64,000 nt of DNA from an uncultured bacterium (GCA_937124615.1 CAKZKR010000109.1:12338-76337); one strand, 5' to 3'; counted from the first letter of the stretch, positions 37,551-48,507 are shown. The notes: generated by a model not told the origin, from the letters alone. Made by a program: numbers and translations.

Positions 37551-38888
37551 TCATTGTTTGTTTTGTTGAACATAAGGAACAGAGTAGGAAGCATGAGGGA
37601 GAACGAGCCAGGAAGGTTTAGAGATTCCAACTTTTTTAAGATCTTTACAGGCTAAATGAAAACCCTCCTCCACAGTTTTTATTTTTTGTCCTCCCATCAA
37701 ATTAATAGTTTCTTCATCCATTTCAGTGAGGAAATATGTATTCACGGCTTTTTCTAAAGTTGATATAACGGTTTGTCCATTTACTTCTCCGTTTTTTCGG
37801 AGGTGATCAACTAATTGTTTTGGATTTCTCTTACGAAGCCATTCTTTAAATTGATAACCCCCCAATCCTTCACTACAGGGAGCAATAAAAATTATTTTTC
37901 CGTAGGGTTTTTTTCTTGCCTGCCATGCGTTGACAAGTGCTTTATGACTTTGAAGAAAATTTTTTGCTTCCCCGGCAGATGCAATTACAATATCCACAGG
38001 TTTGGGGATTTTTATAGAGTACACTTCTTGTGCATATTCTGTTCCCGCTTTATGTGCTTTAACGATATCTCCACAAAAAATATTTAGTATTTTTTTATCA
38101 GGAGAGATTACTGTATTGATGATAAAATAGTTTTTTTGAGTAAGTAATGTTGCTTCAAGTAAATCTTCTGCGACGGGGTTCCCTTCTAGTTTTCCAAGTT
38201 GTACATCGGGATGAATTTCGCATTTGTCCGGATGAATACTTAAAGCATGGTTGTAACGAATTGTAGGTAATGCGGATAATCCTGGAACAATGAGTTTCCG
38301 ACCCCCTCCAAAACCTGCAAAATAGTGATACAAAATTGTTCCCGTTAATATTAGAAGGTCACTTTTCATAACTTCTTTATATATGTATACGGGAGTTCCC
38401 CTTTTTGTTCTACCTAGATATTCATACTGTTGTAAATCTTCAGGGTTAGGAACTAAAATATTTTGCTTGTAAGCATCATAGATTTCAGGTGTCAGTATGG
38501 ATTTTAGCTCTGTTTCTGTTGGTGGTCGATGGGAACCTACGGAAACCAAAAATTTTAAATTTTCGGGTTGGGCTCCACAAGAGATGAAGTAATTCATCAT
38601 ATTTTTAATGAATAATTCAATCCCTGTATAGCGGAAGGAGTCGGAGATAGCAATTGAGATATTTAGATGATGAATGTTTTTATTAAATGGGTTTTCCAAA
38701 ACCCCAATTGGGTTTTGGATAGATTCCATAAACAGATTTTCAGGAGAAACTTTTGTTTGGGGCCATTGTAGAGCAAAAGAACCTCGATAACCGTCCTCGG
38801 GGAGATATGCAATTATTTCTTTTGATTTGTAGGGTACCTTAATTTTAATTTTTTCAATATGATTGTTTTCATTTTGTTTTTCTTGCAT
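37551..38888 (-). CDS. LarA-like protein (lactate racemase / nickel-pincer-nucleotide-dependent racemase-epimerase family, DUF2088)
   Basis: HYFAGFGGGRK and GSHRPPT motifs resemble the LarA signatures FAGYSGGRK / GTHRP. 445 aa. Confidence 0.55.
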   Translation of the reverse strand: MQEKQNENNHIEKIKIKVPYKSKEIIAYLPEDGYRGSFALQWPQTKVSPENLFMESIQNPIGVLENPFNKNIHHLNISIAISDSFRYTGIELFIKNMMNYFISCGAQPENLKFLVSVGSHRPPTETELKSILTPEIYDAYKQNILVPNPEDLQQYEYLGRTKRGTPVYIYKEVMKSDLLILTGTILYHYFAGFGGGRKLIVPGLSALPTIRYNHALSIHPDKCEIHPDVQLGKLEGNPVAEDLLEATLLTQKNYFIINTVISPDKKILNIFCGDIVKAHKAGTEYAQEVYSIKIPKPVDIVIASAGEAKNFLQSHKALVNAWQARKKPYGKIIFIAPCSEGLGGYQFKEWLRKRNPKQLVDHLRKNGEVNGQTVISTLEKAVNTYFLTEMDEETINLMGGQKIKTVEEGFHLACKDLKKVGISKPSWLVLPHASYSVPYVQQNKQ

Positions 38889-38956: not shown

Positions 38957-39511
38957 ATGATGTTTCCAAAATTAAAAAAAAAGAACTGTAATAAGGATAT
39001 GACATTCTTAACTGAAACATCAAAAGGTTTTACTTTAATTGAGTTAATAGTCGCTTTAGCTGTTTTAAGTATAGCAGTAACGGGTTTGGTTCAGATGTTC
39101 TCATTAAGTTTAAACCTGGCTCAAACATCTCAAAATGCTATATTGGCCGGTAATATTGCATATGATAAATTGGACTATTTAAGAAACTGTCCGGAAAAGT
39201 TTATTTGGAAGGTTTCCGATAGTGTTAATCCGGAGGATTTTTTCTCTATTCTTACCTCTGAAGATGAGGCCAAAGCGGGAAATGTATTAGAAGTCCCAAT
39301 AACTGTTCCTCCCGACTGGGCGAGTTTTCGGAAATATAAAGATGTTTCACAAAAATTTCGCTGGAAAGCATTTGGAAAATTAGTGTCAAATGGTAAAGAT
39401 TATTATGAGGTTGTAGTTATAGTTATTTATAAAGAATTTGGTCGAATAAAATATTATACTGCGAATTCAATTATACCTTGTTTCCAAATAGATAAGGTAA
39501 TAAAGAAATGA
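38957..39511 (+). CDS. Prepilin-type N-terminal cleavage/methylation domain pseudopilin (GspH/I-like)
   Basis: KGFTLIELIVALAVLSIAV is the type IV pilin N-methylation motif. The real start is probably ATG at 38999. Confidence 0.75.
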   Translation: MMFPKLKKKNCNKDMTFLTETSKGFTLIELIVALAVLSIAVTGLVQMFSLSLNLAQTSQNAILAGNIAYDKLDYLRNCPEKFIWKVSDSVNPEDFFSILTSEDEAKAGNVLEVPITVPPDWASFRKYKDVSQKFRWKAFGKLVSNGKDYYEVVVIVIYKEFGRIKYYTANSIIPCFQIDKVIKK

Positions 39512-40140
39512 AGACTATTAATCGAGTAACGAAGAATGGATTTTCTTTAATAGAAGTTATTACTGTTTTGGCTATCTTATCTGTATTGTCAACTATAGGT
39601 GTAGTTATGTTCGGTAAAATAATGGATTACCGACGACAATCTGAAATAAGGCAATCCCTAAATATAAATTACTTACGATTATCAAATAGACTACAGGCAG
39701 ATTTTGACCAGATTGTTTCTCCAACATTTACACAGGGGCGTTTAACTACGATTCGGCATGTTGAAAATGAAAAAAGATATCAATCTGTTCCTCTGGATGA
39801 TGATAGGATTTCATTCCCTATAATGTATGTGGATTCTGAAGATAGAAATACTGTTGTTCAAATATTCTACTATATTGACCGAAGTTTGGGGGGGGCCCCT
39901 TCTCTTGTTAGAGTAATTAGCCCTGTGGGACAGAAAGAACCAAGTGGAGCAAGAGAAATTATTATGACAGGTGTACTTGCAATGAAAGTTCATTGTTATG
40001 ATGGGAATAATTGGTTAGAAGAGTGGAATAAGCCTTTTTATCCGAGAGCCGTAAAGGTAAGTTTAGTGTTGGCAGATGAAAATAGGATTTGGGAACAAGT
40101 AGTTCGTGAAAGCACTTTCTGGTTAGGGAATATCTTATGA
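39508..40140 (+). CDS. Prepilin-type pseudopilin (GspJ-like)
   Basis: NGFSLIEVITVLAILSVLSTIGVVMFG. Confidence 0.7.
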   Translation: MKTINRVTKNGFSLIEVITVLAILSVLSTIGVVMFGKIMDYRRQSEIRQSLNINYLRLSNRLQADFDQIVSPTFTQGRLTTIRHVENEKRYQSVPLDDDRISFPIMYVDSEDRNTVVQIFYYIDRSLGGAPSLVRVISPVGQKEPSGAREIIMTGVLAMKVHCYDGNNWLEEWNKPFYPRAVKVSLVLADENRIWEQVVRESTFWLGNIL

Positions 40141-41138
40141 GAATGATATTTATTAAAATACAAAAGAACTCATGGAAACCTGATAATAAGGGTGTGGCGC
40201 TCATAATAGCCATATCTTTATTGGGGGTTTTTGCTCTACTTGGTATGTATTATGTGCGTGATGGTGAGACAGAGATAAAAAGGACAGCCCTTCTTCTGGA
40301 TGAAATGAGGGTAAGAGAATATGCGAAAACGGGTGTTAGTTCGGCTCTTGTAGAATTGGAAAAAGCATGGAAATCAGATACAACTCAGGATTTGTTAGAG
40401 AAATGTCCTCTTGAATTTAGTTATCCATACTATAAACAAGTACATAAGAGTGATAGGTCTTTGTCATTAGAACCATCCGATACAATGGATGTTCGTGTAA
40501 AAGTCTGGATAACAGATGAAAGTGGGAAAATAAATTTGAATTGTACTCCTGCGAGTGTACTCCAGAAAGTTCTTAATATAAACGGGGAAACTGCAAGAAG
40601 AATTGTTTCCAACTTACCTAATCCAGGATTTTCTTCTTCATCAGGGAAATGGTTTTATCTTGTGGAAGAGTTATATGGTCCAAATGGGATGATTCAGGAA
40701 AAGATTGATAAGAAAATATTGAATTTTGTATCAACCTGGAATGCAGGGAATCCTAATACTCCCATTCCCTATTTAAATGTTAATAAGACATCTGTTGAAA
40801 TTTTGATGGCTTTGTTTAATATAAGTTCTGAGGAGGCACAAAAAGTTATCGATTCTCGACCTTTGAAATCAATGAATGATATTGTGAAGTTACTGGAAAA
40901 GTCCCCGATGGGATTTAATGTAAAAGTTGATGATATGTCCTCAAACTGGCAATTTCCTTTCACAGATAGGTCAAATAGTTTTAAGATTATAGTAGAGGCA
41001 GAATTGAGTAGAGTTGTTTCTGGAAAGAAGTATAACCCTGTTTATGCATCAAAAGAAGTAGGAGTTGTATTTGTTGATGGGAGTCCAGTGGTTGTTTGGA
41101 ATAGAAGTATTCCTGCAGAAAAAATAAAAAATAGATGA
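40137..41138 (+). CDS. General secretion pathway protein K-like pseudopilin
   Basis: N-terminal hydrophobic segment (VALIIAISLLGVFALLGM) plus helix-hairpin-helix-like ILNINGETARRIV / VNKTSVEILMAL segments typical of GspK. Confidence 0.6.
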   Translation: MRMIFIKIQKNSWKPDNKGVALIIAISLLGVFALLGMYYVRDGETEIKRTALLLDEMRVREYAKTGVSSALVELEKAWKSDTTQDLLEKCPLEFSYPYYKQVHKSDRSLSLEPSDTMDVRVKVWITDESGKINLNCTPASVLQKVLNINGETARRIVSNLPNPGFSSSSGKWFYLVEELYGPNGMIQEKIDKKILNFVSTWNAGNPNTPIPYLNVNKTSVEILMALFNISSEEAQKVIDSRPLKSMNDIVKLLEKSPMGFNVKVDDMSSNWQFPFTDRSNSFKIIVEAELSRVVSGKKYNPVYASKEVGVVFVDGSPVVVWNRSIPAEKIKNR

Positions 41139-41157
41139 TGATATAAGGAGAACAGCG

Positions 41158-42369
41158 ATGGCAGAGAAGAACGCTGAAGGAATTAAAAAAGTTCGCAAAT
41201 CGACAAAAGGGAAGGTACAAAGTCTTGTACAAATTGTTAACGAAGAGGAAGTTATTCGTCGAGAACCTGTTTTTAATAATACGGGATCTATGAGTTTTTC
41301 ATTTATAAAAAGAGGAACCGTACGGTATCAAGAAATAACCGATTTTCTAAGACAATTGATAATGCTTTTAGAATCGGGGACGCCTTTATTGAAATCATTA
41401 AAAACTTTAGCATTGCGAGGTCAATCTGATGCCATCCGTGGACTTGTTAATGACATGGCGTTGTATGTTGAGGAAGGAAATCCCTTATGGCAAGCGTTCG
41501 ATAGACATCCTCGTTATTTTGATACTGTATTCGTTAATCTAATTAAAGCCAGTGAAGCTAGTGGAACACTGACGACAGTATTACAGCGACTGGTAGATTA
41601 TCGACAAAGGAGAGATTTACTCCGTAGAAAAGTGAGGGGAGCCATATTTTATCCGATAGTGCTTGTAATTGCGTGTCTGGGGGTATTGTTACTGCTTACA
41701 AATTTTGTAGTTCCACAATTTCAGGATATGTATCAAAAGCAAAATATAAAAATTCCTCCTGCAACTGAGTTGTTTTTTAGTGTTTCCGATTGGTTCCGTG
41801 TGTGGTGGTGGTTACCTATTGTATTGATACTTATTTTGATATTGTTATATCAAGTATGGTTTATTCGGAATCCCCTACGACGGTTATCGGCAGACCGGTT
41901 TAAATTAAAGATTCCGATTATAGGGAAAATTATTCATAAATATGCGATTGTTGAGATGATGAGGACCTGGTCCTTGTTATTGAGAAGCGGTCTTTCTATG
42001 ATGTCTTCGTTGGAACTTACTAAAAATTCTATACATAATCAAGCCGTAGCTCAAAGTTTACAGTCCTTGCGTGATTCCATTGAACGGGGCGGAGGTTTAG
42101 AAACCCCCTTACGGGCTTCTGCTGATGTAATACCTCCTGTTGTTGCCGATATGTTAATAACTGGGGAGGAATCGGGGAGTATCGATAAAATTGCAGAACA
42201 AATAGCGGATATATATGATAATGAGGTTCAGGTAGCAGTCAATACCTTAGGAGAAGCCTTACAACCTATATTTACAGTGATTGTAGGAATTATTGTAGTT
42301 ACATTGTTCATCTCATTGTTCTATCCAATGATTAGTATGATAGAACAAATAACAAATGCCAGCGTCTAA
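41158..42369 (+). CDS. Type II secretion / type IV pilus platform protein (GspF/PilC family)
   Basis: 403 aa. Duplicated T2SSF domains with three TM segments. The IFYPIVLVIACLGVLLLL pattern is typical. Confidence 0.85.
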   Translation: MAEKNAEGIKKVRKSTKGKVQSLVQIVNEEEVIRREPVFNNTGSMSFSFIKRGTVRYQEITDFLRQLIMLLESGTPLLKSLKTLALRGQSDAIRGLVNDMALYVEEGNPLWQAFDRHPRYFDTVFVNLIKASEASGTLTTVLQRLVDYRQRRDLLRRKVRGAIFYPIVLVIACLGVLLLLTNFVVPQFQDMYQKQNIKIPPATELFFSVSDWFRVWWWLPIVLILILILLYQVWFIRNPLRRLSADRFKLKIPIIGKIIHKYAIVEMMRTWSLLLRSGLSMMSSLELTKNSIHNQAVAQSLQSLRDSIERGGGLETPLRASADVIPPVVADMLITGEESGSIDKIAEQIADIYDNEVQVAVNTLGEALQPIFTVIVGIIVVTLFISLFYPMISMIEQITNASV

Positions 42370-42386
42370 CAAATCTAATTAATAAA

Positions 42387-42430
42387 AGACAGGGCAAACA
42401 TAATTAAAAGATGTTTGCCCTGTCTTTTTA
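42387..42430. terminator. Bidirectional rho-independent terminator between gspF-like (+) and the convergent gene at 42440 (-)
   Basis: AGACAGGGCAAACAT-aattaaaag-ATGTTTGCCCTGTCT is a perfect 15-bp stem followed by TTTTT. Confidence 0.9.
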
Positions 42431-42439
42431 AGAGTAAGA

Positions 42440-43669
42440 TTAGCGATTTGCAAAAGCATTTTGAATGGTTTGTAAATCAACTCCCAATATTTCTTCTGCA
42501 AGGTAGTTCAATTCTTTTTCATTTCCTATAAAGTGGAATGTTCGATGGGTGTGTTCAACATATTCTCCCTTTTTCAATTCTTCAGCGGGAGAAGAAGTTT
42601 CCAGTTCATAAAAAGGTCCTAAAGGTTTTTTGCCAGGTCCTAAAGGCCCATCGTTATAGGAATTTATAGTATCACCGCCATAGGGTTCTTTTTGGAGTTC
42701 CCACATAGAATTCACATACGGTTTTAATGTGTCAGGTTTACTATATTGAACAACTGTTAAAACTTTATTTTTTGCATCATAACTTCCACATACGGATAAT
42801 GCTCGTTTTGGGGAAATGCCGATTTTACTCCGATACTGACCATCTCCACGGAAGAATACTACATTATTTTTTACTAGCAAACGGTCTGCGGGAACCTTCC
42901 CAAAGTATGCATCGTTTACTTTGGGTCCTAAATCTTCTTCGGAACCGGGTAAAAATGGGATAACAATGGTAGTTTCTGGTGATGGATTGAACATCCCTAA
43001 AATCCAGATAGATAGAAGTCCTTTTTCCTTAGTCCAATCTTCATTCCCTGTATTTGTCATTTTGTTTTTTGACTCAAAACCTATATATTTGATGTTAGAA
43101 GGAATTCTTACTCCTAACGCCCCCGCTATTTGTTCCTTCGATAGAATACTCACGGTTCTTTCAATTAGTGTCTGAAAATCTGTTCCCGTCCAGTTCTTTA
43201 ACTTTGCATCTTTCTTAAAAGTGATTTGTTTTTCACTTTGTGAGACTACTTCATAAGGTTCCGTATCAATGACAGCAGGTGTTTGCCAGTGTTCTAAGTC
43301 AAAAGGGGCATTAGGGGGAAAGAAAATACCATATTGTCCCCCTTCGGGACCAATCCAGAAACGGTCCTCACCTCCAAACACATTGATATGGGGTTCTATC
43401 TTTTTGGATTCTATTAGTTCACGGTTAATCCAGCCAAAACTCAATCCTTCAGGACCTTCCGCAGTGCTGGTCATGATACGTCCCTGATATTCAGGAACTA
43501 TCGCTACTTCTCCATTAGATTCAGTATCTTTTAGTAGAAGGACCGTTACATATTTCTTTAAAAATTCCACATCATCCTTAAAGCGAGAATTGGCATAGGC
43601 CGTGTTGTATGAAAAACAAAAAATAAGCATTAGTAAAAACAATCCGATAATGAACATTACTTTTGTCAT
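42440..43669 (-). CDS. Secreted hypothetical protein (409 aa)
   Basis: N-terminal signal peptide (MTKVMFIIGLFLLMLIFCFSYNTAYA). No recognisable domain. Confidence 0.4.
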   Translation of the reverse strand: MTKVMFIIGLFLLMLIFCFSYNTAYANSRFKDDVEFLKKYVTVLLLKDTESNGEVAIVPEYQGRIMTSTAEGPEGLSFGWINRELIESKKIEPHINVFGGEDRFWIGPEGGQYGIFFPPNAPFDLEHWQTPAVIDTEPYEVVSQSEKQITFKKDAKLKNWTGTDFQTLIERTVSILSKEQIAGALGVRIPSNIKYIGFESKNKMTNTGNEDWTKEKGLLSIWILGMFNPSPETTIVIPFLPGSEEDLGPKVNDAYFGKVPADRLLVKNNVVFFRGDGQYRSKIGISPKRALSVCGSYDAKNKVLTVVQYSKPDTLKPYVNSMWELQKEPYGGDTINSYNDGPLGPGKKPLGPFYELETSSPAEELKKGEYVEHTHRTFHFIGNEKELNYLAEEILGVDLQTIQNAFANR

Positions 43670-43806
43670 ACTTCATCTCCTTTTATTAATAGCTTACAGA
43701 TATAAATTAATATGTTTTAGTTTCAAAGAATTAAAACAAAAGTATTATAATATATCTTTCAATAGGAACTTATTAATTGTAATCTATTTTAGAGAGGATT
43801 TTCGCT

Positions 43807-45933
43807 ATGAGGTTGTTTTTTGATAAAAAGACACAGAAGAAAAAAGTAAAAATTTTATATATTCTTCCCTCCCATTATGACGATGATGGTTACCCGTACC
43901 ATTTTTGGAAAGGACTACTTCCCTCAAATACACTTGTATGTATGAGGGCATTAACAGAAAAATTGATTGATGAAGGTAAAATTGATAAACAGTTTGATGT
44001 ACATGTTGAAATAATAGATGAATTTGTCCATGGGGTTGATGTAGATCGCATTGTGAGTAATAGCAGAAGGCAAAAAGAAGACCTTGTTGTTGGTTTGGTA
44101 GGTGTGCAGACAAATATGTTTGCGCGGGCAACGGATTTGGCTCTTATGTTGCGAAAGTATCATATCCCTGTAATAATAGGAGGGTTTCATGTAAGTGGAG
44201 TTATGAAACTGTTTGGTCCCGATGCTCCTGATTTGAAGTTTTTAATGGATCGAGGTGTGAGCTTGGTATGTGGTGAAGTTGAAGGAGATGGTGTTCTCTT
44301 AAGTATATTAAATGATGCAATGAATAATAGATTGCAGTCCTATTATATTATTAAGGAAGCACCCAATATCGAAGACGCGCCTATCCCTCTTGCAGACCCC
44401 CAATATCTTAAACACTTTATGCAACCTATGTGCACAATAGATACCAGTAGAGGGTGTCCTTTTAATTGTTCTTTTTGTACCATTATTAATGTTCAGGGTA
44501 GAAAATTACGGTGTCGTTCTGCTGAGAAAATTTTGGAAGCAATCGAGAAAAATTATGATAATGGCTTTTTCAGTTATTTCTTTACAGATGATAACATGTC
44601 CCGTTCTGCTATCTGGAAAGATATTTTTTCAGGGCTTATTGAGTTAAGAAAGAAAGGGAAAAAGATTCGGTTTATGATGCAGATTGATACTCAAGCCTGG
44701 AAAATTCCTGATTTTGTTCGTATGGCTTCTGAAGCGGGATGTTACCTCGTATTTGTTGGGATGGAAAGTATTAATCCACAAAATCTGATATTGATGAAGA
44801 AAACACAAAACAAGACCTCCGAGTATGCGGAAATGGTAGAAACATGGCATAAAGCAGGAATTTTAGTTCATGTAGGGTATATCGTGGGTATGCCCTGCGA
44901 TACTCCACAAAGTATTCACCAGGATGTTACATTATTAAAGAGCGGAGTTAAAGTTGACGAGGCTTCTTTCTTTATAATGACACCTCTTCCTGGTTCAAAG
45001 GACCATAAAGACCGTATTGAAGGGGGGGAAGAAATATCGGCTGATTATAATGAATATGATAGTTGCCATGAAACCTTTCCCCATCCTAATTTTAGAGAGG
45101 GGGAATTGAGAAAGTCATGGTTAAAGGCATGGTCTCTTTTTTATTCAAAAGATAATATTATCGATGTATTGCTTCGTTGTCCACCAGAACAGTATTGGAA
45201 TGCTTTTTGGTTAACTCTATGGAATCGTTATTCAACTTTGCTTAACAATCATCCTATGAGTATGGGTTTTTTAAGGAAGAAGAAACGTATGGAGCGTCGT
45301 TCTTCAATGATTATAGAAAGTCGTAGAGAGTTTTTACACCGAAGGATTAAAGATTTTATAACCCAGGTAAAGGTAATTATGCGGGTGTTTTATGAATATC
45401 AAGAAATATGGCTATTAACACGGAAGCAATTGAACGAGAAGCGAGAATCATTAGCCTCTGCTTATTCATATCTTCAAGAAATACGTTCCCGACTGGTTCA
45501 GGGATTACAGTCAAACCAGTATACACAATTTGTTGCTCAGGAATATGAACAGATTATTCAAAAAACTAATGAATTGATGCTTCGATTATCTCAGACATCG
45601 GGCAAGATAAATCATAAGATACAGTGGAAATTGGAACAACAACTAAATGGATTAAAGGATCAGATCAATGGTTTTAAGTCCCGTGTGCCTAATTTTGATA
45701 ATCTGGTTCGACTTGATTCTATTGTAAGAAAAAGGATTATTTATAGTTATGAGGAAATAATGATTAAATCTGTTGCACATCGTAGAAAGGTCAATCGTTG
45801 GTGGATAGGGTTAAAACATGATTTATCTGTTGGAAGATTTCGATTAAGAAATGTGTTTTATTTTCCGGAGGTATTGTTTTTTGAACTTTTTACAGGTTTG
45901 AGGTTTGCTATATCAGCAGTTCGGATGAAGTAA
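43807..45933 (+). CDS. B12-binding domain-containing radical SAM protein (class B), with ~250-aa C-terminal extension
   Basis: N-terminal cobalamin-binding-like domain, then the radical SAM core with RGCPFNCSFCTI (CxxxCxxC), then a long helical C-terminal region. Confidence 0.75.
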   Translation: MRLFFDKKTQKKKVKILYILPSHYDDDGYPYHFWKGLLPSNTLVCMRALTEKLIDEGKIDKQFDVHVEIIDEFVHGVDVDRIVSNSRRQKEDLVVGLVGVQTNMFARATDLALMLRKYHIPVIIGGFHVSGVMKLFGPDAPDLKFLMDRGVSLVCGEVEGDGVLLSILNDAMNNRLQSYYIIKEAPNIEDAPIPLADPQYLKHFMQPMCTIDTSRGCPFNCSFCTIINVQGRKLRCRSAEKILEAIEKNYDNGFFSYFFTDDNMSRSAIWKDIFSGLIELRKKGKKIRFMMQIDTQAWKIPDFVRMASEAGCYLVFVGMESINPQNLILMKKTQNKTSEYAEMVETWHKAGILVHVGYIVGMPCDTPQSIHQDVTLLKSGVKVDEASFFIMTPLPGSKDHKDRIEGGEEISADYNEYDSCHETFPHPNFREGELRKSWLKAWSLFYSKDNIIDVLLRCPPEQYWNAFWLTLWNRYSTLLNNHPMSMGFLRKKKRMERRSSMIIESRREFLHRRIKDFITQVKVIMRVFYEYQEIWLLTRKQLNEKRESLASAYSYLQEIRSRLVQGLQSNQYTQFVAQEYEQIIQKTNELMLRLSQTSGKINHKIQWKLEQQLNGLKDQINGFKSRVPNFDNLVRLDSIVRKRIIYSYEEIMIKSVAHRRKVNRWWIGLKHDLSVGRFRLRNVFYFPEVLFFELFTGLRFAISAVRMK

Positions 45934-45935
45934 AT

Positions 45936-46727
45936 ATGCAGGAAGAAATAGAGATACAGCATCGCAGGGTAGGCGTTATCATGCTTCATGGTGCTTGTTC
46001 TATGAGTTGTCTCTTTTGTATTACAGAGAATTCTCTCACGGAGATGACCTCAGAACAGGTGGAAGAGGTTTTAAAGATAATAGAAGAACGGGATATGGAA
46101 AGTGTAGTATTTGGTGGAGGGGAACCATTACAATGGACCTACTCATTGGTTCATTCAATAAATTTAGCGAAATCTTTAGGACTTCATACACAGGTAGGAA
46201 CAAATGGTATAGGACTAACTTCGAATATAATAGAAAAAATAAATGCAGACCGATATATTCTCCCGCTTGATTCCGTCAATCCTCAAGTTCATAATTATTT
46301 AAGGGGAGGGTTTCGAAAACATTATGACATAATAAGGAAAAGATTGAAATATCTAACAGAAAGAGGTATTTCTTTTACTATATCTACCGTTATTTGCAGA
46401 GTTAATATTGATATCTTAAGTGAGATATCTGCTTTCTTGCTTCATTTGTGGGATAAAGGGGCCAGGATTCATGCATGGCATTTATACCGTTTTTTGCCAT
46501 TAGGGAGGAACGGATTTAAGAATGCAAATATGCTCAATATTTCTAAAAACGAATACTTTGATAAGACTGAAGAGATGAAAAAACGCGACCTTCCATTTTT
46601 TGTTTATCGCAGGCCTAATATGAAGTTATCAAAGGAAGTAGACTTTTTCTGGGCAGAAGAAGGTTGTATAAAAATAGGAAGTCAGGTCTGGTTTGAAAAA
46701 CAATCTCCTGATTGTTTGTGTAAGTGA
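45936..46727 (+). CDS. Small radical SAM protein (263 aa)
   Basis: CSMSCLFC is the CxxxCxxC cluster-binding motif near the N-terminus. 2 nt downstream of the B12-rSAM gene. Confidence 0.65.
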   Translation: MQEEIEIQHRRVGVIMLHGACSMSCLFCITENSLTEMTSEQVEEVLKIIEERDMESVVFGGGEPLQWTYSLVHSINLAKSLGLHTQVGTNGIGLTSNIIEKINADRYILPLDSVNPQVHNYLRGGFRKHYDIIRKRLKYLTERGISFTISTVICRVNIDILSEISAFLLHLWDKGARIHAWHLYRFLPLGRNGFKNANMLNISKNEYFDKTEEMKKRDLPFFVYRRPNMKLSKEVDFFWAEEGCIKIGSQVWFEKQSPDCLCK

Positions 46728-46731
46728 GTCA

Positions 46732-48507
46732 TTATTTGTTTTTAGGGGGGACGATAGCAATATGAAGTTCCTTGAGTTGTTTTGGAGTAACTTCACTGGG
46801 AGCCCCCATGAGTAAATCACGGGCTTTTTGATTTAATGGGAATGCAATAACCTCACGAATATTAGGAGAATCTGTGAGAAGCATCAGTATGCGGTCAAAA
46901 CCGGGGGCTATACCACCGTGAGGAGGAGCCCCATAGTGGAATGCTTTCCATAATGCTGGAAATTTATTTTTGACAACTTCGGGGGGATATCCTACAATCT
47001 CAAATGCTTTGAGCATGATTTCAGGTTTGTGATTTCGGATGGCACCTGAGGAGAGTTCTACTCCATTGCAAACGATATCGTATTGGTATGCGAGTATATC
47101 AAGAGGGTTTTTATTTAGTAAAGCATCCATTCCCCCCTGTGGCATTGAAAATGGATTGTGGGAGAAATCGTAATGTTTTTCTTCTTCATTCCACTCAAAC
47201 ATTGGGAAATCGACAATCCAACAAAATGCTACTTGATTGGTATTTATCATATTGAGTTGACGCGCAAGATATGTGCGAACTTTCCCCATAAGAGCATGGG
47301 TCTCTTTTCGTGAGCCTGCTCCAAAGAAAATTGAATCGCCCTCGTTTATTTGAAGTCTTTGAATAAGTGCTTTCTTTTCCTCATCCTTCATAAATTTTGC
47401 TATAGGACCTTTAAAATCCCCTTCTTTTAATATAAGCCAGGCCAGTCCTTTTGCTCCTTCACTTTTTGCGTATTCTTCTGCATCGTCAAAGAACTTACGG
47501 GGTTGCTGGTCTGCATGTGGAAGATGGATTCCCTTTACAACTCCTCCTGTTGCAACTTGAGCACTAAAGACTTTAAGTTCTGAATGGGCAAAAATATCAG
47601 TACAGTCATGCATTTCCAGTCCATAACGCAAATCGGGTTTGTCCGTACCGTATTTTTCCATGGCCTCTCGGTATGGGATTCGGGGGAATTTTTCCCAGAT
47701 GATATTTTTGGAAGAGAGTTCTTTGAATATATGAACCATAAGTAATTCAAGTTCATAAAAAATGTCTTCCTGAGTTACAAATGACATTTCAATATCAATT
47801 TGGTAGAATTCTCCTGGACTACGGTCTGCTCGGGAATCTTCATCACGAAAACAAGGGGCTATCTGAAAATATTTGTCAAAACCAGAAATCATCAGTAATT
47901 GTTTGAATTGCTGAGGGGCCTGAGGTAAAGCATAAAATTGTCCGGGGTAAATTCGACTGGGGACAAGGAAATCGCGAGCTCCTTCTGGAGAAGAACTTGT
48001 AAGTATTGGGGTGTGAAACTCGTTGAAACCTCGCGATATAAGGTGGTCTCTAACAAGTTTGGCTAGTTGGGTTCGCAACATAATATTTTTGTGAAGGGTA
48101 CTTCTTCGAAGGTCTAAAAAACGATATTCCAGACGCAACTCTTCAGGGGTCTCAATTTCCTTATTAACAGGGAACGGTAATTGCTCACAAGCAGACTCTA
48201 AGTGAAAATTGGTTGCAACAACTTCTATTTCGCCCGTCTCAATATTTGGATTAATAGTTTCTGGTGTTCGAGCGACTACTTCTCCTTCAATGGTAATTAC
48301 ACTTTCATTTTTTACACTTTCAACCTCAGAGAAAAAGGGACGGTCGGGATTCACAACGATTTGGGTTATGCCATAATGGTCGCGTAAGTCAATAAAAATA
48401 ACTCCTCCATGGTCTCTTTTTGTATGTACCCAACCCGAGAGTTTTACTATTTGACCGACATCAGATTTTCTTAACTGGTTACAACTGTGTGTTCGGTATA
48501 AGTGCAT
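46732..48507 (-). CDS. aspS: Aspartate--tRNA ligase
   Basis: N-terminal OB fold (RTHSCNQLRKSDVGQIVKLSGWVHTKRDHGGVIFIDLRD), a class II core (FRDEDSRADRSPGEFYQID, GGIAPGFDRILMLL), and bacterial-type insertion length (591 aa). Confidence 0.9.
   Translation of the reverse strand: MHLYRTHSCNQLRKSDVGQIVKLSGWVHTKRDHGGVIFIDLRDHYGITQIVVNPDRPFFSEVESVKNESVITIEGEVVARTPETINPNIETGEIEVVATNFHLESACEQLPFPVNKEIETPEELRLEYRFLDLRRSTLHKNIMLRTQLAKLVRDHLISRGFNEFHTPILTSSSPEGARDFLVPSRIYPGQFYALPQAPQQFKQLLMISGFDKYFQIAPCFRDEDSRADRSPGEFYQIDIEMSFVTQEDIFYELELLMVHIFKELSSKNIIWEKFPRIPYREAMEKYGTDKPDLRYGLEMHDCTDIFAHSELKVFSAQVATGGVVKGIHLPHADQQPRKFFDDAEEYAKSEGAKGLAWLILKEGDFKGPIAKFMKDEEKKALIQRLQINEGDSIFFGAGSRKETHALMGKVRTYLARQLNMINTNQVAFCWIVDFPMFEWNEEEKHYDFSHNPFSMPQGGMDALLNKNPLDILAYQYDIVCNGVELSSGAIRNHKPEIMLKAFEIVGYPPEVVKNKFPALWKAFHYGAPPHGGIAPGFDRILMLLTDSPNIREVIAFPLNQKARDLLMGAPSEVTPKQLKELHIAIVPPKNK

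What the first reader, a model, noticed from the sequence alone, without database searches (positions are those of the whole stretch)
43807..46727. Orphan tandem of a B12-binding class-B radical SAM enzyme (with long C-terminal extension) and a small radical SAM protein
Two radical SAM genes are separated by 2 nt. They are flanked by a terminator and secreted-protein gene upstream and a convergent aspS downstream. There is no obvious precursor-peptide ORF, transporter or peptidase nearby, so a RiPP role is unlikely. Class-B rSAMs usually methylate unactivated carbons (lipids, cofactors, antibiotics). The ~250-aa helical C-terminal extension (after residue ~460) is not a standard part of these enzymes. 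The substrate is unknown.
Basis: partly seen in the sequence, partly recalled or inferred. Interest (0 to 1): 0.55.

Follow-up and report, generated by a model that had tools for sequence, protein, structure and literature searches.

The report
Two co-transcribed uncharacterised radical SAM enzymes
Two adjacent genes in a Candidatus Hydrogenedens genome encode real but uncharacterised radical SAM enzymes; the larger one belongs to a widespread family with a conserved, strongly basic helical tail, its substrate is unknown, and the best single clue (a fusion to a membrane fatty-acid desaturase in other bacteria) points to membrane lipids.

Summary
ORFs 43807-45933 (708 aa, "rSAM-L") and 45936-46727 (263 aa, "rSAM-S") lie 2 nt apart. 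Both have CxxxCxxC and pass Pfam Radical_SAM. No characterised family is matched at its curated cut-off (HpnP/R/J, BchE, PhpK, MiaB/RimO, viperin and others).

rSAM-L has three parts: a Rossmann domain, a radical SAM barrel and a 275-aa helical domain (AF2 pLDDT 88). Its nearest structures are AprD4 (which I recall as cobalamin-independent), MgmA, CysS, TsrM and RimO. Cobalamin use is therefore unproven.

The C-terminal "extension" defines a family rather than being an oddity. It is conserved at 43% identity across Hydrogenedentota, Planctomycetota, Acidobacteriota and Latescibacterota, always in this architecture. It carries a net charge of about +20.

rSAM-L is usually a solitary gene. rSAM-S follows it in the five Hydrogenedens-type loci of the 80 reference-genome loci examined, and in one further divergent locus with different flanks. 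rSAM-S is a minimal viperin/BlsE/MoaA-like enzyme.

Two diverged Phycisphaerae proteins fuse rSAM-L to a DesA-like acyl-lipid desaturase. Other lineages place it in front of archease-RtcB. My best guess is a membrane-lipid-modifying enzyme (about 0.3). RNA or protein modification is a close rival. This is a new variant of a known kind, of moderate interest.

The parts
43722..43751 (+). Sigma-70-like promoter candidate (TTCAAA-18-TATAAT) in the 137-nt divergent intergenic region
   Evidence: Consensus scan only. The number of such sites in the region is no higher than in shuffled sequence, so this is weak evidence.
43793..43798 (+). Shine-Dalgarno-like AGAGGA, 8 nt before the rSAM-L ATG
   Evidence: Read directly from the sequence.
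43807..45933 (+). rSAM-L: 708-aa radical SAM enzyme, made of a Rossmann domain, a radical SAM barrel and a basic helical domain
43840..44346 (+). rSAM-L N-terminal Rossmann (cobalamin-binding-like) domain, aa 12-180. It has the invariant motifs YD(D)DGY, PSN and GGFHxSG, and no conserved cysteine.
44419..45006 (+). rSAM-L radical SAM core, aa 205-400, with the cluster motif C217-x3-C221-x2-C224 at nt 44455-44478
   Evidence: Pfam PF04055, aa 213-375, E 9.5e-14. The cysteines are invariant.
45103..45927 (+). rSAM-L C-terminal helical domain, aa 433-707. It consists of ten helices, seven of them long (aa 506-707). Net charge is about +20. It includes a Trp-rich helix (aa 460-478) and the conserved tail F-E-x5-R-F.
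   Evidence: AF2 model. Charge and pI across 30 homologues. A profile of this domain alone finds 424 clusters, always in the same architecture.
45936..46727 (+). rSAM-S: 263-aa single-domain radical SAM enzyme. It has C21-x3-C25-x2-C28 (nt 45996-46019), a GGGEP motif and the family motif AWHLYRFLPxGRxG.

Best explanation
The two genes form a small, lineage-specific operon of two uncharacterised radical SAM enzymes in a Candidatus Hydrogenedens chromosome.

**rSAM-L.**
- It belongs to a widespread family with a fixed architecture of about 700 aa.
- An N-terminal Rossmann domain of the cobalamin-binding type sits next to a canonical [4Fe-4S]/SAM barrel. That barrel generates the 5'-deoxyadenosyl radical.
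- The conserved arginine-rich helical C-terminal domain most likely docks the enzyme on a polyanionic surface.
- I take that surface to be the cytoplasmic face of the membrane, and the substrate to be a membrane lipid. The chemistry would be modification of an acyl chain or a lipid-linked group: C-methylation if cobalamin is bound, otherwise an O2-independent desaturation or rearrangement.

**rSAM-S.**
- It is a minimal viperin/BlsE/MoaA-type radical SAM enzyme.
- In this lineage it is co-transcribed with rSAM-L and probably acts in the same pathway.

**Shown.** The gene structure, domain architecture, cluster motifs, family distribution, the absence of orthology to characterised enzymes and the desaturase fusion.

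**Inferred.** Membrane docking, a lipid substrate, the chemistry, and functional coupling of the two enzymes.
For: **Radical SAM identity and fold.**
- Both proteins have the Pfam domain and the cysteine motif.
- Both AF2 models are confident: pLDDT 87.7 and 93.0.

**Family.**
- Full-length conservation holds at 43% identity, with about 110 invariant columns among 30 sequences.
- Members occur in Hydrogenedentota, Planctomycetota, Acidobacteriota, Latescibacterota, Nitrospirota-labelled bins, Ignavibacteriota and Sumerlaeia.
- The C-terminal domain occurs only in this architecture.

**Link to the membrane and lipids.**
- Two Phycisphaerae proteins that are 66% identical to each other fuse a DesA-like acyl-lipid desaturase to rSAM-L through a short linker. 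These are P0119 (seen in at least three independent assemblies) and P0363. The desaturase part scores 368 bits against NF052548.
- The C-terminal domain has pI 10.3 and net charge +20, whereas the catalytic domains are acidic. There is a Trp-rich helix, and the most hydrophobic 19-residue stretch of the protein is in the tail.
- B12-radical SAM enzymes are the established tools for methylating, cyclising and, per a 2025 preprint, anaerobically desaturating lipid tails (PMC13459092; bioRxiv 10.1101/2025.10.20.683597).

**Coupling of the pair.**
- The gap is 2 nt here.
- The same order with 4-27 nt gaps is found in five reference genomes.
- It is also found in L005, at 49% and 40% identity, with entirely different flanks: a UDP-glucose-dehydrogenase-family gene upstream, and lpxC-fabZ, lpxD and bamA downstream.
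Against: - **Thin fusion evidence.** The lipid link rests on one fusion lineage. None of the 80 reference loci has a desaturase or an obvious lipid gene as a conserved neighbour.
- **No predicted membrane segment.** No 19-residue window reaches the usual Kyte-Doolittle transmembrane level; the maximum is 1.4.
- **Charge fits nucleic acid at least as well.** A +20 arginine-rich helical domain suits nucleic-acid binding as well as membrane binding.
- **Polar conserved residues.** Many invariant residues in and after the barrel are polar or charged, for example R235, R237, D261, D262, N263, D294, K332 and the D413-N415-D418-H421-E422-H426 loop. That is not what a purely hydrocarbon-binding pocket would suggest.
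- **RNA-repair neighbours.** In other Hydrogenedentota the gene sits 7-41 nt upstream of archease-RtcB.
- **Cobalamin unsupported.** There is no PF02310 hit, and the best structural match is AprD4, which I recall as Cbl-independent.
- **The pair is not obligate.** rSAM-L is usually solitary, and five of the six rSAM-S relatives at about 40% identity whose loci I examined are solitary too.
Confidence: 0.3

Rival explanations
1. rSAM-L modifies a nucleic acid or a ribosome-associated protein, for example by tRNA/rRNA or ribosomal-protein C-methylation. The arginine-rich helical domain would be the RNA-binding module, playing the part that the TRAM domain plays in MiaB and RimO.
For: - The C-terminal domain has net charge +20 and pI 10.3 throughout the family.
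- The gene is solitary, highly conserved and sits in housekeeping regions.
- Its neighbours include aspS here, archease-RtcB at 7-41 nt in at least four Hydrogenedentota loci, class I Tyr/Trp-tRNA synthetase in four loci, and a ComFC-like protein in eight.
- Many invariant polar residues surround the barrel.
Against: - The conserved fusion to an integral-membrane acyl-lipid desaturase through a short linker would tether the enzyme to the membrane. That is hard to reconcile with an RNA substrate.
- There is no auxiliary-cluster cysteine triad and no TRAM, PUA or THUMP-type domain.
- The RNA-related neighbours each come from one lineage, so they represent few independent events.
- The family is absent from most bacterial phyla, unlike core RNA-modification enzymes.
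Confidence: 0.25
2. The pair is a two-step radical pathway acting on a polar sugar or nucleotide-sugar, for example a cell-envelope or LPS precursor. rSAM-L would act like the AprD4 diol dehydratase. rSAM-S would act like viperin, BlsE or DesII, which dehydrate or decarboxylate nucleotide or sugar substrates.
For: - The rSAM-S profile matches BlsE best (1.8e-13), followed by viperin-like enzymes. Foldseek gives viperin at TM 0.7. The PADLOC pVip model scores 83 bits.
- Both proteins have invariant polar residues.
- In L005 the pair lies between a UDP-glucose-dehydrogenase-family gene with kdsA, kpsF and neuB-type genes on one side and lpxC-fabZ and lpxD on the other.
Against: - The NCBIfam AprD4 model scores 42.8 against a cut-off of 500, and the viperin model 53 against 180.
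- Sugar-nucleotide genes are not enriched among the neighbours in the 75 diverse loci.
- This reading leaves the large basic helical domain and the desaturase fusion unexplained.
- The L005 context is a single locus.
Confidence: 0.15
3. The two genes are functionally unrelated, and their adjacency is merely compact operon packaging in one lineage.
For: - rSAM-L is solitary in 75 of 80 reference loci, and its partner differs by lineage: rSAM-S, archease-RtcB, a ComFC-like gene or a fused desaturase.
- Five of the six rSAM-S relatives at about 40% identity whose loci I examined are solitary. Three of those are abutted by a convergent SAM methyltransferase instead.
Against: The pair persists with gaps of 2-27 nt at 49% and 40% identity while both flanks have changed. 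That is more than simple synteny would predict.
Confidence: 0.3
4. The pair matures a ribosomally synthesised peptide (RiPP).
For: Both are radical SAM enzymes, and there are weak NCBIfam similarities to ApyD, TIGR03975, SkfB and sactipeptide maturases.
Against: - There is no intergenic room for a precursor (gaps of 137, 2 and 4 nt).
- There is no RRE, SPASM or twitch domain, and no conserved extra cysteines.
- No protease or exporter lies nearby.
- No conserved small ORF or partner turns up in the 80 loci.
- All RiPP family scores are far below their cut-offs.
Confidence: 0.02

Closest known systems
Class-B (cobalamin-dependent) radical SAM enzymes with solved structures: MgmA (9ccb), CysS (9n1b), TsrM (6wte), TokK (7kdx)
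   Different: - Identity is only 15-19%.
- Pfam B12-binding (PF02310) is not detected.
- The C-terminal domain is a different, 275-aa basic helical bundle.
- Cobalamin binding is untested.
AprD4 (6fd2), radical SAM 1,2-diol dehydratase of apramycin biosynthesis
   Different: - Identity is 18%.
- NCBIfam NF033070 scores 42.8 bits against a cut-off of 500.
- AprD4 is 454 residues long and has no helical C-terminal domain.
- AprD4 sits in an aminoglycoside gene cluster, whereas rSAM-L is a solitary chromosomal gene.
- That AprD4 works without cobalamin is from my own knowledge of the literature.
Lipid-tail-modifying B12-radical SAM enzymes: HpnP/HpnR, GrsA/B, Gmm, Ted and the ladderane-cluster enzyme TIGR04072
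   Same: The architecture class is the same. TIGR04072 aligns over aa 102-378 (58 bits) and HpnJ over aa 201-407 (71 bits). The fusion to an acyl-lipid desaturase suggests a membrane-lipid context. The pairing of a B12-type enzyme with a small radical SAM enzyme recalls the gms-gmm clusters (PMC11214058).
   Different: - All scores are 5-10 times below the family cut-offs.
- There is no lipid-biosynthesis neighbourhood.
- The pocket residues are polar.
- The basic C-terminal domain is not matched by any of these family models; their alignments end by about aa 455.
Methylthiotransferases RimO and MiaB
   Different: There is no N-terminal cysteine triad for the auxiliary cluster and no TRAM domain. 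TIGR00089 scores 35 bits against 251.
Viperin/pVip, BlsE and MoaA-type minimal radical SAM enzymes (comparison for rSAM-S)
   Same: - Foldseek TM is about 0.7 to viperins.
- Profile hits to BlsE (1.8e-13) and viperin-like enzymes.
- PADLOC pVip scores 83 bits.
- From my recollection of those sequences, the beta-6 motif WHLYRFLPxGR resembles the MoaA RFIExMP and viperin KVFQCLLIEGEN motifs.
   Different: - Identity is about 20%.
- NF038283 scores 53 bits against 180.
- It is about 30-55 aa shorter than the deposited viperin chains, so it probably lacks the nucleotide-binding C-terminal tail.
- It is not in a defence-island context.

Membership tests
Radical SAM superfamily (PF04055) | CxxxCxxC motif that ligates the [4Fe-4S] cluster | tested here: met
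   rSAM-L: C217/C221/C224 are invariant in 30 sequences. rSAM-S: C25 and C28 are invariant and C21 is at least 90% conserved in 34 sequences.
Radical SAM superfamily (PF04055) | Profile score above the Pfam gathering threshold, and a partial TIM-barrel fold | tested here: met
   52.3 and 55.9 bits against 29.5. The AF2 models match radical SAM structures.
Class-B cobalamin-dependent radical SAM | N-terminal Rossmann-type cobalamin-binding domain (fold) | tested here: met
Class-B cobalamin-dependent radical SAM | Sequence match to the B12-binding domain model PF02310 | tested here: not met
   No hit at E<=0.01. None of the listed homologues carries a precomputed PF02310 hit.
Class-B cobalamin-dependent radical SAM | Actual binding and use of cobalamin | not testable with these tools
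   The best structural match, AprD4, has the same fold and, as I recall, does not use cobalamin. No cobalamin riboswitch lies upstream.
Hopanoid enzymes HpnP/HpnR/HpnJ, BchE, PhpK, MgmA (TIGR04014), AprD4 and the ladderane-cluster enzyme TIGR04072 | NCBIfam equivalog score at or above the curated cut-off | tested here: not met
   - HpnJ 70.9 against 577.6
- HpnR 49.5 against 650
- BchE 59.7 against 481
- PhpK 71.9 against 600
- TIGR04014 44 against 360
- AprD4 42.8 against 500
- TIGR04072 58.1 against 360

All. No HpnP model was listed among the hits.
MiaB/RimO methylthiotransferases | N-terminal three-cysteine auxiliary cluster and a C-terminal TRAM domain | tested here: not met
   No conserved cysteine in aa 1-200. 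No TRAM hit. TIGR00089 scores 35.1 against 251.
YgiQ / UPF0313 (the name JGI gives to some homologues) | TIGR03904 score at or above the cut-off | tested here: not met
   27.8 against 462, aligned over only 42 residues at the cluster motif. The JGI name probably reflects a broad COG label.
Viperin / pVip (rSAM-S) | NF038283 score at or above the cut-off | tested here: not met
   53.3 bits against 180. PADLOC pVip scores 83 bits, covering aa 18-216. The fold is similar (TM 0.7). It resembles viperin but is not a member.
SPASM/twitch peptide maturases, RiPP systems | C-terminal auxiliary-cluster cysteine motif, and an adjacent precursor peptide with RRE, protease or exporter | tested here: not met
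   No conserved extra cysteines. No Pfam SPASM hit. No room for a precursor gene and no such neighbours.
Glycyl-radical-enzyme activases (rSAM-S) | TIGR02493/02494 score at or above the cut-off, and a glycyl radical enzyme partner | tested here: not met
   39.1 against 231.75 and 30.3 against 174. No glycyl radical enzyme gene was found near the pair.

The most novel reading that the evidence does not exclude
rSAM-L is the bacterial counterpart of the archaeal B12-radical SAM lipid-tail modifiers (Gmm, Ted, Grs). It would be a peripheral-membrane enzyme that methylates or anaerobically desaturates unactivated carbons of fatty-acyl membrane lipids.

Its distribution covers Acidobacteriota, Planctomycetota, bins labelled Nitrospirales or Nitrospiraceae, and Hydrogenedentota. 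From my own knowledge, that would make it a candidate for the still-unassigned mid-chain methylations of bacterial lipids, such as the extra methyl groups of brGDGTs and iso-diabolic acid.

The Phycisphaerae fusion would then join an O2-dependent and an O2-independent acyl-chain modifier in one protein.
Probability: 0.12. Interest if true: 0.75.

Novelty: new variant of a known kind. Interest (0 to 1): 0.35.

Why it matters
Radical SAM enzymes of the cobalamin-domain type carry out chemically difficult reactions on unactivated carbons, and most of their subfamilies have no known function.

This locus draws attention to a well-defined, widely distributed and architecturally distinct subfamily: a Rossmann domain, a radical SAM barrel and an arginine-rich helical bundle. 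No curated model or paper that I could search describes it. It is common in poorly studied phyla (Hydrogenedentota, Planctomycetota, Acidobacteriota, Latescibacterota).

The analysis supplies testable leads:
- a desaturase fusion pointing to membrane lipids;
- an archease-RtcB operon and a +20 charged domain pointing to RNA;
- a homologue labelled Mucisphaera sp., a genus that I believe has a cultured representative, for experiments.

If the lipid reading is right, it would bear on the unknown enzymology of branched bacterial lipids used as palaeoclimate proxies. If not, it is one more orphan radical SAM family.

Tried and rejected
**Curated libraries and literature.**
- Pfam, NCBIfam, PADLOC and PDB sequence searches found no family at its cut-off for either protein.
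- The afdb50 fold library was unavailable, so no structure-based annotation from UniProt was possible.
- Five literature searches were run. They covered membrane-spanning lipids and brGDGT with radical SAM, mid-chain branched fatty acids with cobalamin, desaturase with Planctomycetes, and Hydrogenedentes with radical SAM. The 2026 review of lipid radical SAM enzymes was also read. None gave a characterised match.

**Neighbourhood analysis of 80 GTDB loci.**
- No neighbour is conserved across the family.
- The most frequent Pfam families occur in at most 4 of 147 neighbour proteins.
- The greedy ORF picking mis-chose antisense shadow ORFs in high-GC loci. It therefore under-counted the ComFC-like neighbour, which BLAST clustering recovered in 8 loci.
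- No desaturase lies next to rSAM-L in these loci or anywhere in the window.

**Other checks.**
- Rfam found no riboswitch upstream and nothing at gathering score in the whole window. The only weak hit (mir-759, E 0.029) is the terminator hairpin.
- Kyte-Doolittle hydropathy and hydrophobic-moment analysis of the C-terminal helices did not separate membrane binding from RNA binding.

**Rejected readings.** RiPP maturation, methylthiotransferase, YgiQ, a glycyl-radical activase and a true (defence) viperin; see the membership tests.

**Not done.**
Full report
**1. What is in the sequence**

- The window has about 35% GC.
- The ORF list shows 43807..45933 (+, 708 aa; "rSAM-L") and 45936..46727 (+, 263 aa; "rSAM-S").
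- The rSAM-L stop codon is followed by two bases and then the rSAM-S ATG.
- An AGAGGA Shine-Dalgarno-like site and a TTCAAA-18-TATAAT promoter-like site precede rSAM-L, in a 137-nt region shared with a divergent gene.
- That divergent gene (42440..43669, -) is a DUF6786 protein with a hydrophobic, signal-like N-terminus.
- Beyond its 3' end lies a strong hairpin plus T-run at 42389-42432, facing the end of a type II secretion gspF gene.
- aspS (46732..48507, -) converges 4 nt after rSAM-S.
- Further out are argS, a LarA-like gene, T2SS pseudopilins, argC-argJ-argB and tolQ. This is an ordinary chromosomal housekeeping region.
- Identical and near-identical proteins come from Candidatus Hydrogenedens assemblies.

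**2. rSAM-L**

*Sequence and family matches.*
- Pfam finds only Radical_SAM (aa 213-375).
- NCBIfam gives many weak hits to B12-domain radical SAM families (PhpK, HpnJ, BchE, the ladderane-cluster enzyme, HpnR, MgmA, AprD4, TsrM-like) and to MiaB/RimO. All are 5-15 times below the curated cut-offs.

*Predicted structure.*
- An AlphaFold2 model built on 30 homologues is confident (pLDDT 87.7, pTM 0.88).
- It shows a Rossmann domain (aa 12-180), the radical SAM barrel (aa 205-400) and an all-helical region from aa 433 to the end, including seven long helices.
- The helical region matches only generic helical bundles.
- The protein therefore belongs to the structural superfamily that pairs a Rossmann domain with a radical SAM barrel.

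*Why cobalamin use is unproven.*
- That superfamily includes true cobalamin enzymes, AprD4 (which I recall as cobalamin-independent) and the methylthiotransferases.
- The Pfam B12-binding model does not hit rSAM-L or any listed homologue.
- There is no N-terminal cysteine triad, so it is not a methylthiotransferase.

*The C-terminal domain defines a family.*
- Homologues of about 700 aa align over 98% of the length at 43% identity, with about 110 invariant positions.
- A profile of the C-terminal domain alone, searched against 1.84 billion representatives, finds 424 clusters (138 at E<=1e-10).
- Every full-length hit is 630-830 aa, with the domain at about residues 420-700.
- The first 110 or so residues of the domain are the most widely conserved part.
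- The domain has pI 10.3 and net charge about +20 in all 30 sequences examined, whereas the two catalytic domains are slightly acidic.
- It contains a conserved Trp-rich helix (YW..FW...W.RY). The tail, with invariant E693, R699 and F700, holds the most hydrophobic 19-residue stretch of the protein.
- No stretch reaches the usual transmembrane hydropathy level.

**3. Distribution and context of rSAM-L**

- The best 80 come from Hydrogenedentota, Planctomycetota (Thermoguttaceae, Planctomycetaceae), Acidobacteriota, Latescibacterota, Nitrospirota-labelled bins, Ignavibacteriota, Sumerlaeia and others.
- All-against-all clustering of the flanking ORFs, plus a Pfam census of 147 neighbour proteins, found no neighbour conserved across the family.

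| Lineage | Partner of rSAM-L |
|---|---|
| Five Hydrogenedens-type genomes, plus L005 | rSAM-S directly downstream |
| Other Hydrogenedentota | archease, then RtcB, starting 7-41 nt downstream |
| Latescibacterota-type and Bryobacteraceae loci (eight) | ComFC-like phosphoribosyltransferase downstream |
| Phycisphaerae | DesA-like acyl-lipid desaturase fused to the N-terminus |

- The fusion occurs in two proteins that are 66% identical to each other. P0119 (1043 aa) is seen in at least three independent assemblies. P0363 (881 aa) comes from an NCBI MAG.
- The desaturase part scores 368 bits against NF052548.
- P0363 lacks the middle helices (equivalent to aa ~545-652 here) but keeps the proximal part and the last two helices.
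- A homologue labelled Mucisphaera sp. is solitary.

**4. rSAM-S**

- It is a single-domain radical SAM protein with no SPASM or twitch cysteines.
- Its family is small: 94 hits.
- The AF2 model is very confident (pLDDT 93).
- The closest structures are viperins (TM about 0.7, about 20% identity), PFL activase and the cores of SkfB and SuiB.
- A family profile hits BlsE and viperin-like enzymes best.
- The PADLOC pVip model scores 83 bits, but the NCBIfam viperin model scores 53 against a cut-off of 180.
- It therefore resembles the viperin/BlsE/MoaA group without being a member.
- I examined six rSAM-S relatives at about 40% identity. Five are solitary, and in three of those a convergent class-I SAM methyltransferase abuts the 3' end.
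- The sixth, in locus L005, directly follows a 49%-identical rSAM-L, with completely different flanks: a UDP-glucose-dehydrogenase-family gene upstream, and lpxC-fabZ, lpxD, ompH and bamA downstream.
- Persistence of the pair while both flanks changed is moderate evidence for functional coupling. The many solitary cases on both sides show that the coupling is not obligatory.

**5. Interpretation**

Established:
- these are two genuine radical SAM enzymes, probably co-transcribed;
- neither is orthologous to a characterised enzyme;
- rSAM-L represents a distinct, widespread subfamily with a fixed architecture.

Inferred: the substrate.

*The lipid reading.* The most specific clue is the conserved fusion to an integral-membrane acyl-lipid desaturase. 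It places the enzyme at the cytoplasmic face of the membrane in those organisms. By the usual fusion logic it links the enzyme to acyl-lipid metabolism. B12-type radical SAM enzymes are the known tools for methylating, cyclising and anaerobically desaturating lipid tails (PMC13459092, PMC11214058, bioRxiv 10.1101/2025.10.20.683597).

*Evidence against the lipid reading.*
- There are no lipid-gene neighbourhoods.
- Many invariant residues are polar.
- A +20 arginine-rich domain would suit RNA at least as well as membrane.
- An archease-RtcB operon follows the gene in other Hydrogenedentota.

*Estimated confidence.*

| Reading | Confidence |
|---|---|
| Membrane-lipid modification | about 0.30 |
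| RNA or protein modification | about 0.25 |
| Two-step polar sugar or nucleotide pathway (AprD4-like plus viperin/BlsE-like) | about 0.15 |
| RiPP maturation | effectively excluded |

Whether the two enzymes act on the same pathway is a separate question. I rate it at roughly 0.5-0.7.

**6.

- The label "B12-binding class B" should be softened to "class-B-like architecture, cofactor unverified".
- The C-terminal extension is a conserved family hallmark.
- The tandem arrangement is lineage-specific.
- Overall this is a new variant of a known kind of enzyme. It is of moderate interest, with concrete and inexpensive experiments available to decide between the lipid and RNA readings.

Noticed in passing
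window 42389-42432: A strong, perfectly paired hairpin (AGACAGGGCAAACAT / ATGTTTGCCCTGTCT) followed by TTTTT. It lies between the convergent gspF (41158-42369, +) and DUF6786 (42440-43669, -) genes and is probably a bidirectional terminator. The simple terminator scan missed it. Rfam gives only a spurious weak mir-759 hit there.
   Followed up: partly
L019, L023, L025, L031 (also L026, L030): In other Hydrogenedentota, the rSAM-L homologue is followed on the same strand by archease and then RtcB, the RNA ligase/repair pair. The gap to archease is 7-41 nt in L019, L023, L025 and L031, and 403 nt in L026. This looks like an operon linking the family to RNA repair genes.
   Followed up: partly
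L050, L053, L059, L063 (adjacent); L051, L067, L072, L074 (1.5-3.9 kb away): A ComFC-like gene (phosphoribosyltransferase plus double zinc ribbon) lies downstream of rSAM-L on the same strand, in Latescibacterota-type and Bryobacteraceae loci. It is the most widely recurring neighbour (8 loci).
   Followed up: partly
P0119 (L007-L009) and P0363 (L091): Phycisphaerae proteins fuse a DesA-like membrane acyl-lipid desaturase to the N-terminus of an rSAM-L homologue. P0363 has lost the middle helices of the C-terminal domain but keeps the last two. In both loci a response-regulator gene converges on the 3' end of the fusion gene, with a histidine kinase next to it.
   Followed up: partly
L001 8868-9569, L002 8766-9446, L093 4014-4799: Solitary rSAM-S relatives at about 40% identity are abutted at their 3' end by a convergent class-I SAM methyltransferase. 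The methyltransferases in L001 and L002 are orthologous (49% identity). The one in L093 is only distantly related. The window contains no homologue.
   Followed up: partly
L093 1090-9753: One rSAM-S relative sits among other radical SAM and maturase genes: a SPASM radical SAM gene, a gene with a BATS domain (HydG/BioB/ThiH-type) and a HydF-like GTPase.
   Followed up: no
window 45043-45084 (rSAM-L aa 413-426): An invariant polar loop, D-x-N-x-x-D-x-x-H-E-T-x-x-H, follows the barrel and has lower model confidence (pLDDT about 55-80). With H400 and H482 it could form a metal or substrate-headgroup site.
   Followed up: no
window 38957-42369: A type II secretion / pseudopilin cluster lies just upstream of the finding: proteins with the N-terminal methylation motif, GspJ-like and GspK-like proteins, and GspF.
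   Followed up: no
window 1-64000: No Rfam family reaches its gathering score anywhere in the 64-kb window. It therefore contains no recognisable riboswitch or other curated RNA.
   Followed up: yes
window 37551-38888: A LarA-like gene (lactate racemase N- and C-terminal domains) lies between argS and the pseudopilin genes.
   Followed up: no
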